A program made the position numbers. A stretch of DNA of 64,000 bases from Truepera sp. (lineage in GTDB: Bacteria > Deinococcota > Deinococci > Deinococcales > Trueperaceae), in the NCBI GenBank assembly GCA_965218435.1, contig CBDCKW010000009.1, positions 2,048,001 to 2,112,000 of the forward strand. Reading direction: 5' to 3'. Shown here one piece after another: positions 21,001 through 24,000 of this stretch; position 1 is the stretch's first letter, and every line of letters starts with the position of its first letter.

Positions 21001-24000
21001 GCCATACGAACCCGAGCTTCACAATGGACGTGTACAGCCATATGTTTGCAACGCAGAGAGCGCAGGCCGCTGTCGGCATGGCTGACCTACTCGGAACCGA
21101 CGCGAGACAGGAAAAACTGAATTAAACCCTGTAGGTGTAATTAAGGTGTAAACCGGCACACAAGAGAAGCGCCCCACACTTAGCGGGGCGCTCTTTTTGC
21201 GTCTCTGACGGCTTTTCTTTGGTAGCGATGAAGAGACTTGAACTCTTGACCTCACGATTATGAGTCGTGCGCTCTAACCAGCTGAGCTACATCGCCACAC
21301 AGCAGTAGCAGCTTCAAACCTCTCGAGACACCTTAATCTCTGACGGTTTGACCACAGAAGATGCTATCACTCAGGTTCGGAGCCTTGCAAGTCACTTAAA
21401 GCTCGAGAAACCCAAAAAACGTCTCACTTGTCTGAGCGGGACGCGCACCAACTCCCTGGCGGGCGCAATATCTAAGCACAAACAATCTTTGATGGGCGCG
21501 TTTACGAGCAACCTCGAGTCGGCAAAACGCTCCGCCGCACCGATAGCACTAAAAACTTTTCACCACATTTCTTGAATACTTTATTAGGAGCAAAGCGTGT
21601 ATGTCGCTTTCACTTGCATTACCTAATCATTTAAGGTACCATGACATATAAAAATTCTACCGCTCCCGGAGGTTATAATGGACAGCCAGAGACAGAAGAG
21701 CCTAGAGACGACCCTCACACAGATCGAGAAACAGTTCGGCAAAGGGGCGATCATGCGCCTCGGCGACGACCGCACCATGTTAAGCCAAGGCGTCATCTCG
21801 ACCGGCTCGATGTCGGTTGACTTAGCCTTAGGCGTCGGGGGCGTCCCCCGTGGCCGCATCATCGAAGTCTATGGTCCCGAGTCCGGCGGCAAGACCACCT
21901 TAAGCTTACATATTATCGCCGAAGCGCAAAAAGCCGGGGGCGTGGCCGCGTTTGTCGACGCGGAACACGCCTTAGACCCCGGCTACGCCAAAGCCTTAGG
22001 CGTCGATACCGACGAGCTGTTAGTTTCCCAACCCGACACCGGCGAGCAAGCCTTAGAGATTACCGAACTGCTGGTAAGAAGTGGGGCGGTAGACGTTATC
22101 GTGGTTGACTCCGTAGCGGCGCTTGTCCCCAGGGCGGAGATCGAAGGCGAAATGGGCGACACCCACGTCGGCTTACAAGCCCGCTTGATGAGTCAAGCGT
22201 TGCGGAAGCTGACCGGGGTGTTATCCAAAAGTCACACCACGGCGATCTTTATCAACCAGATTCGGGAAAAGATCGGGGTGATGTACGGCAACCCCGAAAC
22301 GACCCCCGGAGGACGCGCGTTAAAGTTCTATTCGTCCGTGCGGATGGAAGTGCGGCGTAAAGGGGACGTCAAGTCGGGGACTGACAAAGTGGGCAACCAA
22401 ACGCGGATCAAAGTCACCAAGAACAAAGTCGCCCCGCCGTTTAAGGAAGCGGAAGTCGAGATTATGTTTGGCCGGGGGATTGACAAAGTGGGCGACCTGA
22501 TCAACATTGCTTCGGACCTAGACATCATCCAGAAGTCGGGTTCGTTTTACAAGTATGACGGCGTGACCATCGGCCAGGGTAAAGAAAAAGCTTCGGCTTA
22601 CCTCTTAGACCAACCCGGACTTATTGAGCAGATTAGGGAGAGGGTCGTAGGGGTCGTCAGTGGTAAGGGGGCCGAAGAAGATGAACCCGGCGTGCAGCAG
22701 AGCCCTATGGGTGAACTAGGCTAACGTGACCCGCAGCGACCTCAGAGAGGTGCTCAGCTACGCCCTCGGCGGCGAGGCTCCAGAGCGGTTTGTCGAGCGT
22801 TTGGTGTCGCGCCGCGAATGGGACAGTGAGTTTGAGGCGAGGCTCGAGGCCCTCGCCTACGAACTCCGCCCCGACCTAGCCGTGTGGGAAGTTGAGGTAG
22901 ACGAGCAAGGTCACTTTCAAGAACGCCGGGTGCCGCTGCTCGAGTAGCACTTTAGTCTAAGGAGCAAACGATGACTCAGAGCTCCGAACTCGGATTACTA
23001 CTCGAGTCTTTTAGCCGTAACGGACGAGTTAATGACGTTATCCTCAGCGCCCTTACCGAAGCAGACCTAAACTTAGCAGATGGGCAAGGCGGCTGGAATA
23101 TAGGTCAGCATTTAGGCCATCTGGCAGAGTTTCGTTATGGTTGGTTGAACTTTATCTCACCGCAGCACGCAGAGAACATCCCTTCAGTAGCCGAGGGCGA
23201 CCAGCAAAACTTTCGGCTGACGACGCAAAATCCGGCCGATCTCAAACAGGCATTTGCAGCGGGAGACGCGGCTGCGCTCGAGGCAGTTACAAGTGCGCTG
23301 AGGGAAAACCGTTCTTTTGAAGGAGCTTACAAAAGCCACCCCGCGCACTTTTTACAACACATCATCGTGCACGATTCACATCACCGGGGCCAGGTGATAA
23401 GCCTCCTCCGCCGGGGTAGTTGGACACGCGAGCAGCTCGGTACCCTCGATGACGCTACCTGGACGATTTGGAACGAGGCGCAAGATTAACTTTAAGCACA
23501 CATAAAGGAACTGAAATGGCTGTTATTCTCCTTTTCCACCACGCCCAAGGCTTAACCGAAGGTATCAATGCGTTTGCCGAAGAGCTGCGCTCAGCTGGTC
23601 ACCATGTAACCGTCCCCGACCTCTATGACGGCCTCACTTTCCCTACCGTAGAAACCGGCGTAGAACACGCTAAAAACCTCGGCTTTGAGGCACTTCTCGC
23701 CGCCGGGGTAGCTGCTGCTGACGGCCTTCCAAACGGCGTAGTGTACGGCGGGTTTTCTTTGGGCCTAATGCCCGCTCAGAAACTTGCCCAACAACGCCCT
23801 GGCGCACGCAGCGCGCTGCTCTATCACGGCGGCATACCCGTTACCGAATTTGGTGAGGTTTGGCCGGACGGAGTACCGCTCCAAGCGCATGTAATGCGGG
23901 ACGACCCATGGGGCGACGTCGAGGACGTCAAGGAACTTGTAGCCCAGGCTGACGGAGAGTTGTTTCTTTACGAGGGTGACGCTCATTTGTTTACGGACAG

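What a model noticed while it worked through the whole genome (the two positions that open the first line are those of the whole stretch)
21678..22724. Two recA genes kept near-identical by gene conversion across Trueperaceae
The chromosome carries two recA genes 460 kb apart (g03188 at C9:2069678-2070724, followed by a conserved 73-aa gene; g02718 at C9:1610279-1611331 in the cinA-recA-rny operon) whose central 1001 bp are 99.4% identical while promoters, first codons and C-terminal tails differ. In all 20 other well-assembled Trueperaceae genomes examined the same two loci exist and the two copies are 96-100% identical within a genome but only 69-95% between genomes, so I read this as an old duplication whose cores are continuously homogenised by gene conversion (the recombinase converting its own gene) while selection keeps two different tails and regulatory contexts, i.e. 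two functionally distinct RecA isofor [...]
Evidence so far: Self-BLAST: C9:2069681-2070681 vs 1610300-1611300, 99.4% over 1001 nt; proteins 333 of 334 identical in the core, tails end ...EEETIAAESDLG vs ...[16 protein letters not shown]. search_genomes over 128 Trueperaceae genomes: two full matches in most genomes with few contigs, one in fragmented ones. For 21 genomes (this one + 20) both loci were fetched: one copy always next to cinA and/or rny, the other not; within-genome nt identity 96.1-100%, best between-genome identity 69-95%. ML tree of 42 CDS: the two copies of a genome are sisters in 21 of 21 genomes (support 99-100, one pair identical), the locus label needs 21 changes. Pairwise blastn of the two 7-kb loci of each genome gives one shared tract only, [...]
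(Added by a program. Inside this text positions count along the whole contig: contig position 2,048,001 is position 1 of the stretch shown here. "Call 12" and the like, gene names such as g00115 and contig names such as C1 are that model's own, and its searches are not shown. The text may have been shortened before it was handed on; [...] marks where a part breaks off. The agent that wrote the report below was given it as the finding of a first reader that could run no searches.)

Follow-up and report, generated by a model that had tools for sequence, protein, structure and literature searches.

The report
Twin recA genes homogenised by conversion
This bacterium and most of its family carry two copies of the DNA-repair gene recA whose middles are kept almost letter-identical by copying between them, while one copy sits behind a DNA-damage switch with a small partner gene and the other sits in a housekeeping operon.

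Summary
recA2 (window 21678-22724) and recA1 (contig C9:1610279-1611331, cinA-recA-rny operon) share one 1001-nt tract at 99.4% identity. All six differences are synonymous and the flanks are unrelated.

I fetched both loci from the 24 family genomes with two full matches. Each pair shares a 939-1037-nt tract inside recA at 94.9-100% identity. The two copies are sisters in 24 of 24 genomes. A tree that groups the copies by locus is rejected (p-AU 1.6e-62).

The second locus is old and shared. All 24 carry the 17-bp palindrome ACCTTA-N5-TAAGGT over the recA2 promoter, and none of the 24 cinA loci do. The same palindrome sits at the promoter of lexA in 30 of 30 loci, and at uvrA and photolyase in this genome. 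I read it as the family's LexA box.

One lineage (G096) shows a conversion tract that overwrote the locus-specific first 15 codons. Some lineages have lost recA1.

The 73-aa gene after recA2 belongs to a small family with no known fold. A complex model places it on RecA's filament interface (score 0.67, best control 0.00).

Gene conversion is well supported. Two functionally distinct isoforms is still inference.

The parts
21614..21642 (+). recA2 promoter with its operator: -35-like TTGCAT (21614-21619), 17-bp palindrome ACCTAATCATTTAAGGT (21621-21637, one mismatch to ACCTTA-N5-TAAGGT), -10-like TACCAT (21637-21642). The palindrome fills the 17-nt spacer.
   Evidence: Sequence read. The motif lies 24-198 nt upstream of recA2 in 24 of 24 second loci and in 0 of 24 cinA loci. 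The same motif is at lexA, uvrA and photolyase in this genome and at 30 of 30 lexA loci of the family. The strict sigma-70 scan found no promoter here, so the hexamers are my reading.
21678..22724 (+). recA2 coding sequence (348 aa), the SOS-type copy
   Evidence: ORF. Pfam RecA 1e-139 plus RecA_C.
21681..22681 (+). Tract shared with recA1 (C9:1610300-1611300): 1001 nt, 99.4%, six synonymous differences, all in the last third
22682..22724 (+). recA2-specific C-terminal tail (…[14 protein letters not shown]) and stop codon, outside the shared tract
   Evidence: In 24 of 24 genomes the tract ends 26-115 nt before the recA2 stop.
22726..22947 (+). orf73, a 73-aa gene whose GTG start lies 1 nt after the recA2 stop. 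It belongs to a small lineage-restricted family and is predicted to bind RecA.
   Evidence: A profile finds it directly after recA in 18 of the 62 loci scanned, never at a cinA-rny locus apart from the hybrid contig of G123. 47 clusters at 90% identity and 12 representatives at 50%; no Pfam family. AF2 pLDDT 88.8. Complex model 0.67 against 0.00.
22971..24079 (+). DinB-family gene (22971-23489) and dienelactone-hydrolase-family gene (23468-24079), same strand. They start 23 nt after orf73 and overlap each other, so they may be further members of the recA2 operon in this genus.
   Evidence: ORFs, Pfam. The DinB gene follows orf73 in G125 and G126 as well. Co-transcription is inferred from spacing only. 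A weak terminator-like hairpin lies at 22935-22948.

Best explanation
The family's ancestor already had two recA loci. Locus A is the widespread cinA-recA-rny operon. Locus B is a stand-alone recA2 behind a promoter covered by a 17-bp palindrome that I read as the family's LexA operator, originally followed by the small gene orf73.

Since then, non-reciprocal homologous recombination (gene conversion) has repeatedly copied about 0.94-1.04 kb of one coding sequence onto the other. Within each genome the cores, silent sites included, are therefore 95-100% identical, although orthologues differ by 2-30%. The tracts stop where homology stops. The promoters, often the first ~15 codons, and always the last 8-38 codons stay locus-specific.

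The result is one RecA core expressed from two control circuits: an operon-linked copy, and a copy that is presumably de-repressed after DNA damage. The two products differ only at their termini.

orf73, made together with recA2, is predicted to dock on the RecA surface that receives the N-terminal helix of the next protomer. I infer that it modulates filament growth or sequesters monomers.

Shown: the sequence pattern, the synteny, the distribution of the operator motif, and one lineage-specific tract extension. Inferred: that RecA itself catalyses the conversion, that LexA binds the box, that recA2 is damage-induced, and that orf73 binds RecA in cells.
For: (1) This genome has one 1001-nt tract at 99.4% identity, six synonymous differences and random flanks.

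(2) In 24 of 24 two-copy genomes there is a single recA tract of 939-1037 nt at 94.9-100%.

(3) In the core (nt 61-960), within-genome identity is 94.7-100%, and 100% in 14 of 24 genomes. The best between-genome identity is 70-98.5%. Within exceeds between in 24 of 24.

(4) In the core ML tree of 60 rows the two copies are sisters in 24 of 24 genomes. Fourteen pairs are identical and ten have SH-aLRT 98-100. The locus label needs 27 changes against a shuffled mean of 20.2. The AU test rejects a single clade of locus-A copies: delta lnL 3465, p 1.6e-62.

(5) Where the copies differ, 77 codons differ synonymously and 17 non-synonymously. In G103, 50 differences are spread along the whole core, in 44 synonymous and 3 non-synonymous codons. 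So both copies stay under purifying selection even when conversion lapses.

(6) Locus B is one shared locus. The palindrome is upstream of recA2 in 24 of 24 genomes and within 2.2 kb upstream of recA1 in 0 of 24. Background is 53 hits in 910,689 nt. orf73 follows recA2 in 11 of 24 two-copy genomes and korAB in 10 of 24, and G056 and G108 have both. Divergence of the B-flank genes tracks divergence of rny, r = 0.85-0.90.

(7) A conversion event is caught. The 7-kb upstream flank of the G096 B locus is orthologous to that of G094's B locus (87.3% over 6967 nt). Yet nt 1-45 of the G096 B coding sequence are 98% identical to its own A copy and 51% to G094's B copy. G094, G095 and G012 keep the B-type codons, 84-98% identical to each other.

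(8) The palindrome behaves as a LexA box. It is at lexA (Pfam S24 + LexA_DNA_bind), uvrA and photolyase in this genome and at the promoter of 30 of 30 lexA loci. In G070, 2 of only 3 genome-wide sites are lexA and recA2, and the reversed control pattern gives 0.

(9) The duplication is specific to this family. Sister families show one match in 8 of 8 and 56 of 56 genomes.

(10) orf73 with RecA: ipSAE 0.67 (median of 3 runs), best of 3 controls 0.00. That mark was reached by 116 of 157 solved complexes and 2 of 215 mismatched pairs. The runs agree in 100% of contacts and the partner's pLDDT is at least 74; my own alignments were used, so the counts hold only roughly. The predicted RecA contacts are 87-89, 112-118, 128, 131, 134-138, 181 and 184-185. 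[quoted passage not shown] The numbering matches at the Walker-A lysine K72; that E. coli's lysine is K72 is recalled.
Against: A tree of the 13 codons before the conserved IEKQFG motif does not separate the loci across the family: 14 changes against a shuffled mean of 16.4, and 77 of 500 shuffles are as low. The locus signal appears only in pairwise counts, where same-locus beats cross-locus in 131 pairs, loses in 25 and ties in 106 of 262 between-genus pairs, and in particular clades.

The genus g13 (G022-G024) and G011 lack both orf73 and korAB next to recA2. For them, orthology of locus B rests on the promoter motif and the shape of the termini only.

The flanks upstream of locus B are not conserved even within the genus. 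The tRNA-Met gene is next to recA2 only here.

I derived the motif from the recA2 upstream regions, so the 24 of 24 count is partly circular. The independent tests are the lexA loci, the whole-genome scans and the 0 of 24 at locus A.

The two-copy genomes were chosen because they had two matches. They are kin, so the counts overstate independence.

Nothing here shows LexA binding, induction, or that RecA mediates the conversion. The complex result is a model's confidence, not a measurement.
Confidence: 0.85

Rival explanations
1. Regulation or dosage only. The two genes are kept because they give one RecA under two controls, constitutive in the operon and damage-induced. The differing termini are neutral leftovers at the edge of homology, so there are no functionally distinct isoforms. 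Gene conversion is still the homogenising mechanism.
For: The cores are identical or nearly so. The tract must end where homology ends, so unconverted tails need no selection. In G000, G126, G122, G103 and G096 the N-terminal difference has been erased without loss of either gene. Lineages that keep only recA2 manage with one protein. The operator is present at locus B and absent at locus A.
Against: The recA2 tails carry a hydrophobic residue among the last 7 more often than the recA1 tails: more in 19 genomes, fewer in 1, tied in 3 of 23. Motifs recur across genera in otherwise variable tails..[AV][LM]EA in g7, g8, g24 and g28, and ..LF.. in g13-g15. That looks like constraint, but the feature was chosen after looking.
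Confidence: 0.45
2. Independent recent duplications of recA in each lineage, rather than one old duplication followed by conversion.
For: It would give the same core tree, with copies as sisters within each genome. The flanks upstream of recA2 vary, and orf73 and korAB are not universal.
Against: Each of 24 genomes would have had to place a copy lacking its first and last codons behind the same LexA-box promoter (24 of 24), and often in front of the same orf73 or korAB. Congeners share orthologous B flanks (87% over 7 kb) while the cores are 100% identical within a genome and 96% between genomes. B-type first codons are shared across the genera g7 and g28.
Confidence: 0.03
3. The identity reflects extreme purifying selection and codon bias on RecA, not sequence exchange.
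For: RecA is among the most conserved proteins. Most of the differences that do exist are synonymous.
Against: Orthologous cores differ by 2-30% at the nucleotide level in the same family, while paralogues are 100% identical in 14 of 24 genomes. Selection on the protein cannot freeze silent sites within a genome and leave them free between genomes. The boundaries of identity are knife-sharp.
Confidence: 0.02
4. Assembly artefact: one recA was placed twice, or contigs are chimeric.
For: Short-read bins do mis-assemble here. G123 carries a hybrid contig with locus A upstream and locus B downstream of recA. G055 has runs of N inside both copies. The contigs of G057, G077 and G127 end at recA.
Against: In this genome both copies lie on one 3.9-Mb contig with unique flanks and six real differences. 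The same holds in several genomes of one to a few contigs (G122, G025, G027, G056, G070, G108). The breaks in fragmented bins are what a true 1-kb repeat produces.
Confidence: 0.01

Closest known systems
Long-lasting recurrent concerted evolution of bacterial paralogues, typified by tufA/tufB (survey of 26 genes: PMC6053082, passages and supplements searched; kinetics of tuf conversion: PMC5485169, search listing only)
   Same: There are two copies in different genomic and operon contexts. The paralogues are more alike within a genome than orthologues are between genomes, at silent sites too. The state is maintained over family-level time and attributed to recurrent gene conversion. The proteins involved work in multi-subunit assemblies.
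   Different: recA does not occur in the main text or in the 4 supplementary files held for that survey. Here the converted gene encodes the recombinase presumed to do the converting. The tract covers only the core, so both termini stay locus-specific. One copy carries a damage-response operator and a dedicated small neighbour.
Myxococcus xanthus recA1/recA2 (PMC7029660, abstract seen in the listing)
   Same: There are two chromosomal recA genes with different expression and induction behaviour, and a proposed division of labour.
   Different: By the abstract, the two Myxococcus proteins are functionally differentiated, and no concerted evolution is reported there. In the family studied here the cores are identical and only the regulation and the termini differ. 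That the Myxococcus proteins are substantially diverged in sequence is recalled, not checked.
Other multi-recA bacteria: Deinococcus deserti (3 copies), Bacillus megaterium (2), Acaryochloris (4-7), as listed in PMC3156569 (passages)
   Same: They carry more than one recA, partly in the same phylum (D. deserti).
   Different: The Acaryochloris copies are 'extremely diverse', with signs of positive selection. The extra D. deserti copies are plasmid-borne (recalled). None is described there as a family-wide, chromosomally syntenic pair homogenised by conversion.
Classical SOS control of recA by LexA, and the Deinococcus RDRM/DdrO regulon (PMC1978522, passages)
   Same: A palindromic operator overlaps the promoter of recA and of the repressor's own gene, and is also found at uvrA.
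   Different: The motif ACCTTA-N5-TAAGGT turned up in none of my literature searches. In Deinococcus, lexA is not involved in RecA induction and recA belongs to the RDRM regulon. Here one of the two recA genes carries the lexA-associated motif.
Small RecA modulators encoded next to or with recA (RecX, DinI), and BRC-repeat mimicry of the RAD51 oligomerisation interface (recalled)
   Same: orf73 is a small protein co-encoded with recA and predicted to contact RecA at the protomer-protomer interface.
   Different: orf73 matches no Pfam family. The genome has a separate recX and no DinI match. No structural match was found.

Membership tests
RecA (bacterial recombinase) | Full-length match to the RecA ATPase core and the RecA C-terminal domain, with an intact Walker A motif | tested here: met
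   PF00154 1e-139 over residues 7-269 and PF21096 7.9e-18. GPESGGKT at residues 66-73, read from the translation.
Concerted evolution by interlocus gene conversion | Paralogues within a genome are closer to each other than to orthologues, silent sites included | tested here: met
   24 of 24 genomes. 77 synonymous against 17 non-synonymous differing codons. The AU test rejects grouping by locus.
Concerted evolution by interlocus gene conversion | The two loci are each orthologous across species, so the duplication predates the splits | tested here: met
   Locus A is cinA-recA-rny throughout. Locus B has the palindrome promoter in 24 of 24 genomes, and orf73 or korAB synteny bridged by G056 and G108. 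Congeners share B flanks at 87% over 7 kb. The evidence is weaker for g13 and G011.
Concerted evolution by interlocus gene conversion | Discrete tracts whose ends vary between lineages, and at least one datable transfer | tested here: met
   Tract starts range from -27 to +45 nt and tract ends from 26 to 115 nt before the stop. G096 shows an A-to-B overwrite of codons 2-15.
Concerted evolution by interlocus gene conversion | Direct observation of transfer, and its dependence on RecA | not testable with these tools
   This needs marked alleles in culture.
LexA (SOS) regulon member | The motif is present at the promoter of lexA itself (autoregulation) and at canonical SOS genes | tested here: met
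   lexA in 30 of 30 loci. uvrA, photolyase and recA2 in this genome. lexA and recA2 are 2 of the 3 sites in G070.
LexA (SOS) regulon member | LexA protein binds the motif, and transcription rises after DNA damage | not testable with these tools
   No RNA run is listed.
RecX / DinI (known small RecA modulators), for orf73 | Sequence or fold match to the family | tested here: inconclusive
   orf73 has no Pfam hit at E<=0.01. Foldseek against the PDB gave nothing at E<=0.001, and VIA-align's best Z was 4.0. A separate RecX gene exists at C9:1896512, and no DinI match was found.

The most novel reading that the evidence does not exclude
The family runs a two-isoform RecA system. There is a housekeeping RecA and an SOS-induced RecA with a different, hydrophobic-tipped acidic tail. 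The SOS copy is made together with orf73, a previously undescribed protein that binds the N-terminal-helix docking site of RecA and so controls filament nucleation or capping. Both isoforms must co-polymerise in one filament, so divergence of the core would be poisonous. Selection therefore favours genomes in which gene conversion, carried out by the protein itself, keeps the cores identical while sparing the termini and the promoters.
Probability: 0.2. Interest if true: 0.85.

Novelty: new variant of a known kind. Interest (0 to 1): 0.62.

Why it matters
Concerted evolution that lasts across a whole bacterial family is rare; a systematic survey found 26 genes (PMC6053082), and recA is not mentioned there. 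Here the homogenised gene encodes the recombinase that presumably performs the homogenisation, so the pair is a natural system for measuring conversion rates, tract lengths and their limits.

The work also yields a candidate LexA operator for a family in a phylum whose best-studied genus, Deinococcus, does not use LexA to induce RecA (PMC1978522). It shows that only one of the two recA genes carries that operator. This makes 'same protein, two controls' directly testable against 'two isoforms'.

orf73 is a candidate new RecA-interface binder.

There is also a practical point. The 1-kb repeat breaks short-read assemblies. 17 of 56 high-quality genomes of this family have no full recA match, against 1 of 163 in the sister families. 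This can bias marker-gene completeness estimates and recA-based phylogenies.

Tried and rejected
1. A tree of the 13 N-terminal codons, meant to show locus clades, was uninformative: 14 changes against a shuffled mean of 16.4. I rely on synteny, the promoter and pairwise counts instead.

2. orf73 annotation. Pfam gave nothing. Foldseek against the PDB gave nothing at E<=0.001. VIA-align wide gave a best Z of 4.0, below the noise level. The ESM Atlas gave no usable hit. A profile search of 1.84 billion representatives found only 12 proteins, of which 9 reach E<=1e-10 (eight of them 53-94 aa). Its function stays unknown apart from the complex model.

3. Expression. No RNA holder is listed for window 21300-24100. 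I did not lay reads.

4. The strict sigma-70 and terminator scan found no promoter upstream of recA2. The hexamers I name are my reading of the sequence.

5. I looked for a conserved palindrome upstream of cinA or between cinA and recA1 by eye in 22 of the 24 A loci (cinA was not located in G056 and G011). None is shared family-wide. I started on the idea that locus A is under Deinococcus-type RDRM/DdrO control: six M78-peptidase matches are present and I read RDRM passages. I did not pursue it, so the regulation of recA1 is undetermined.

6. 'No recA' in complete-looking genomes turned out to be assembly gaps and contig ends inside recA, not absence.

7. The first scan of the lexA loci missed 13 of 30 boxes, because my window ended upstream of them. 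The corrected scan found all 13.

8. Literature searches found no report of the Trueperaceae recA pair or of this LexA motif. The library lacks most subscription journals.

9. My genome handles are coded, and I did not verify the name.
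Full report
**1. The observation**

The window holds a 348-aa recA (21678-22724, + strand; Pfam RecA 1e-139 plus RecA_C). 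With the whole assembly laid out, blastn finds exactly one other place like it, on the same 3.9-Mb contig 460 kb away. C9:2069681-2070681 matches C9:1610300-1611300 over 1001 nt at 99.401%, with six mismatches and no gaps.

The six mismatches lie at tract offsets 692, 695, 782, 860, 869 and 911, and all are synonymous. Identity begins at codon 2 of the window's gene and ends 43 nt before its stop. The neighbouring 200 nt on each side are 26.5% identical in register, which is random.

The distant copy lies between cinA (CinA, MoCF and KH domains) and rny (RNase Y). It starts 20 nt after cinA, and its stop overlaps the rny start by 4 nt. The window's copy is followed 1 nt after its stop by a 73-aa ORF.

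**2. The family picture**

A search of 128 genomes of the family found a match in 89. Twenty-four genomes, this one included, had two full-length matches. I fetched both loci with 7 kb on each side.

In 24 of 24 genomes the two 15-kb loci share a single recA tract of 939-1037 nt at 94.9-100% identity. G022 and G103 each have one additional unrelated hit of 87-89 nt elsewhere in the flanks.

The tract starts between -27 and +45 nt relative to the codon aligned with codon 1 of recA2. It always stops 26-115 nt before the recA2 stop.

In the core (nt 61-960), within-genome identity is 94.7-100%, and 100% in 14 of 24 genomes. The best between-genome identity is 70-98.5%. Within exceeds between in 24 of 24 genomes.

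In an ML tree of 60 core sequences the two copies of a genome are sisters in 24 of 24. Fourteen pairs are identical and ten have SH-aLRT 98-100. The locus label needs 27 changes. Forcing the locus-A copies into one clade costs 3465 log-likelihood units (p-AU 1.6e-62).

Where the copies differ, 77 codons differ synonymously and 17 non-synonymously, the latter mostly at the tract ends. G103 is the least homogenised pair. Its 50 differences are spread along the whole core, in 44 synonymous and 3 non-synonymous codons. Both genes therefore stay under purifying selection when conversion lapses.

**3. Is the second locus one old locus?**

Three lines of evidence say yes.

*A shared promoter.* Upstream of recA2 nearly every genome has the palindrome ACCTTA-N5-TAAGGT, directly followed by a -10-like hexamer. 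Counted with up to 2 mismatches in 12 positions, it lies 24-198 nt upstream of recA2 in 24 of 24 second loci. It lies within 2.2 kb upstream of recA1, a span that covers cinA and its upstream region, in 0 of 24. Background is 53 hits in 910,689 nt.

*Synteny.* A profile of the 73-aa ORF finds it directly after recA in 18 of the 62 loci scanned. Eleven of these are among the 24 two-copy genomes. It is never at a cinA-rny locus apart from the hybrid contig of G123. In another ten two-copy genomes recA2 is followed by the genes of a 2-oxoacid:ferredoxin oxidoreductase. G056 and G108 have recA2, orf73 and then the oxidoreductase, which joins the two groups. Divergence of these flank genes between genomes tracks that of rny (r = 0.85-0.90; the genomes are kin, so this is descriptive only).

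*Locus-specific termini.* They recur across genera. Many locus-A proteins begin M-[DN]-E-Q-R-K-K. Locus-B proteins of g7, g8, g24 and g28 begin M-D-K-[ED]-R-[EA]-K-A-L. Among 262 between-genus pairs, same-locus identity of the 13 N-terminal codons beats cross-locus identity in 131, loses in 25 and ties in 106.

A tree of those 39 nt does not resolve locus clades family-wide: 14 changes against a shuffled mean of 16.4. Part of the reason is that five lineages have homogenised this segment. The genus g13 and G011 lack both orf73 and the oxidoreductase genes, so their case rests on the promoter and the termini.

**4. A conversion caught in the act**

G094, G095 and G096 belong to one genus. The 7-kb upstream flank of the G096 second locus aligns with that of G094 at 87.3% over 6967 nt, and its ribosome-binding region is of the B type. 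Yet nt 1-45 of its coding sequence are 98% identical to G096's own locus-A copy and only 51% identical to G094's B copy. G094, G095 and G012, the last from another genus, share the B-type codons at 84-98%.

So in the G096 lineage a tract copied from A to B reached the start codon. Independent duplication cannot produce this pattern. Conversion does.

**5. The palindrome is most likely the LexA operator**

In this genome the 12-position motif with up to 1 mismatch occurs 20 times. The 10-position core occurs 9 times exactly, against 3.1 expected.

The sites lie 10-54 nt upstream of a LexA homologue (S24 peptidase plus LexA DNA-binding domain), uvrA and a photolyase, and 40 nt upstream of recA2. 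Others sit next to DUF6157, DUF3072 (two boxes), a glyoxalase/bleomycin-resistance-family gene, an AAA_24 ATPase and two copies of an ABM monooxygenase gene.

I fetched 30 lexA loci from genomes at least 95% complete. All 30 have the box at the lexA promoter. Seventeen were found in my first window. The other 13 directly abut the start codon, with TTGACA about 14 nt upstream of the box.

In the complete genome G070 only three sites exist genome-wide, and two of them are lexA and recA2. The reversed control pattern gives 0. In G027 and G108 the site lists (14 and 8 sites; controls 0 and 2) again include lexA and recA2.

In the window the box (21621-21637) fills the 17-nt spacer between TTGCAT (21614-21619) and TACCAT (21637-21642). 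That is the classical geometry of a repressor occluding a promoter. Binding and induction remain untested. No RNA run is listed, and the strict consensus scan calls no promoter here.

**6. Not every genome has both genes**

G031 (2 contigs), G029, G030, G102 and G020 show one full RecA match each. That gene is of the B type, with the box upstream and orf73 downstream.

In G020 cinA is followed by rny after about 150 nt, with the usual upstream neighbours in place, so recA1 has been cleanly lost. In G102 no recA lies in the roughly 1 kb between the matched part of cinA and rny. In G031 and G029 rny has neither cinA nor recA beside it. In the core tree these genomes nest among two-copy genomes in two separate places (midpoint root), which suggests at least two losses.

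Many 'one-copy' or 'no-copy' genomes, by contrast, are assembly casualties:
- G055 has both loci with runs of N inside recA.
- G057 has two contigs that end 114 nt into recA.
- In G069 rny begins 78 nt from a contig start.
- The contigs of G077 and G127 end at recA.
- G123 is a hybrid contig.

Among genomes at least 95% complete, 17 of 56 in this family lack a full match, against 1 of 163 in the three sister families. Two of those sister families show a single match in 8 of 8 and 56 of 56 genomes. In the third, 15 of 99 genomes have two or more matches, which I did not examine.

**7. The termini and the 'two isoforms' idea**

The last 8-38 codons differ between the two copies in every genome. 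The recA2 tails more often carry a hydrophobic residue among the last seven: more in 19 genomes, fewer in 1, tied in 3 of 23. Recurring forms are ..[AV][LM]EA..LF.. and ..F[GS]DL[GA], whereas the recA1 tails end in plain acidic runs such as ..GEE or ..GEA. I defined this feature after looking at the data.

The tails sit at the edge of homology. Conversion cannot copy them whether or not selection cares, so their persistence alone proves nothing. The acidic C-terminal tail of E. coli RecA is known as an autoregulatory flap (recalled). That makes a functional difference plausible, not shown.

**8. The 73-aa gene**

It has 47 relatives at the 90% cluster level. All are 65-87 aa, none has a Pfam domain, and the only name any source gives is 'hypothetical protein'. 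A profile search of 1.84 billion representatives returns 12 proteins.

Sixteen columns of the alignment are invariant. AlphaFold2 gives three helices and a hairpin at pLDDT 88.8. No structural match was found: Foldseek gave none at E<=0.001, VIA-align's best Z was 4.0, and the Atlas gave none. The genome has recX elsewhere and no DinI match.

The complex model of RecA2 with orf73 supports binding but does not show it. The score is 0.67 (median of three runs) and the best of three controls is 0.00. That mark was reached by 116 of 157 solved complexes and 2 of 215 mismatched pairs. The runs agree in 100% of contacts and the partner's pLDDT is at least 74. My own alignments were used, so the counts hold only roughly. 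No similar complex is known to me, so a pass from memory is unlikely.

The predicted RecA contacts are 87-89, 112-118, 128, 131, 134-138, 181 and 184-185. [quoted passage not shown] If real, orf73 would compete with the neighbouring protomer, acting as a filament cap or a monomer sequestrator made together with the induced RecA. The cores are identical, so it would bind both RecA proteins.

**9. Comparison and novelty**

Long-lasting concerted evolution of bacterial paralogues is a known but rare class. A survey lists 26 genes, including tuf and, in Deinococcales, ftsH. recA occurs neither in its text nor in the four supplementary files held.

Several bacteria have more than one recA: Myxococcus, B. 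megaterium, D. deserti and Acaryochloris. The passages I saw describe diverged or plasmid-borne copies, not a syntenic pair with identical cores.

My searches found nothing on a recA pair or a LexA motif in this family. The library omits most subscription journals.

I therefore rate this a new variant of a known kind. The mechanism is textbook. The gene, the partial-gene tract that leaves both termini free, the split between an operon copy and a LexA-box copy, and the predicted interface-binding partner are new together.

**10. Verdict**

| Claim | Confidence |
|---|---|
| Observation | confirmed |
| Old duplication homogenised by gene conversion | about 0.85 |
| Palindrome is the LexA operator, making recA2 the SOS copy | about 0.8 |
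| orf73 binds RecA | about 0.6-0.7 |
| The two tails make functionally distinct isoforms | about even odds or less |

Noticed in passing
window 7551-21264: A 13.6-kb integrated element sits in the tRNA-Met gene (21220-21296, minus strand). It is bounded by 70-nt direct repeats (7551-7620 and 21195-21264, 96% identical) and has lower G+C than its surroundings. It carries a tyrosine integrase (19932-21125), a truncated second integrase (16216-16773), an HTH/ParE-like toxin-antitoxin pair (19286-19929), a SMODS nucleotidyltransferase (16837-17709) overlapping a SLATT_4 effector (17603-18301; a CBASS-like pair), split terminase pieces and a DUF3854 protein. It ends about 360 nt from the recA2 operator. 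The tRNA gene is next to recA2 only in this genome.
   Followed up: partly
L038 (G023 locus A), about codon 184 of recA1: The cinA-linked copy of G023 has a 1-nt insertion that creates an in-frame TAA. The rest of the tract is 99.8% identical to its partner. This is either a very recent inactivation not yet repaired, or spread, by conversion, or a sequencing error.
   Followed up: partly
G055 (L107, L108), G057 (L109, L110), G123 (L087), G077 (L082), G127 (L085): The 1-kb recA repeat breaks or confuses assemblies. Signs are N-gaps inside both copies, contigs that end inside or at recA, one hybrid contig joining the locus-A upstream flank to the locus-B downstream flank, and several recA matches that start within about 60 nt of a contig end. 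This explains why 39 of 128 family genomes showed no recA match.
   Followed up: yes
family lexA loci; G027:C1:1549582-1550259: At least 25 of the 57 high-quality genomes show two LexA matches. The second one in G027 also has the palindrome at its start. The roles of the two LexA proteins are unknown.
   Followed up: no
G000 C5:23559 and C5:265637; C9:2690900 and 2690996: Two identical copies of a box plus ABM-monooxygenase gene lie 242 kb apart on the 685-kb contig C5. Two boxes 96 nt apart lie between a DUF3072 gene and a glyoxalase-family gene. These are candidate SOS-regulon members of unknown role, together with DUF6157, an AAA_24 ATPase and a 157-aa protein that also has a box in G027.
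   Followed up: partly
upstream of cinA in locus A of G012, G013, G094, G096, G070 (L063, L068, L069, L066, L074) and of G026, G027, G028, G103: Two conserved non-coding elements lie between the Mg-chelatase-like gene and cinA. One is a GC-rich hairpin followed by ...GGTGGAGGG..., which looks like the end of a small structured RNA gene on the other strand. In g14, g15 and G103 there is a direct repeat CTTACAA-N4-CTTACAA. Neither was identified.
   Followed up: no
single-recA genomes G031, G029, G030, G102 (L077-L079, L084): Where recA1 has been lost, the surviving recA2 has no hydrophobic residue in its last seven positions (tails ..EEKEEA..KPAKDK..KSSKDK..SSDDAE). G020 and G001 are also single-copy and keep one (..FFDEE..LEADLD). 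This was seen after the fact.
   Followed up: no
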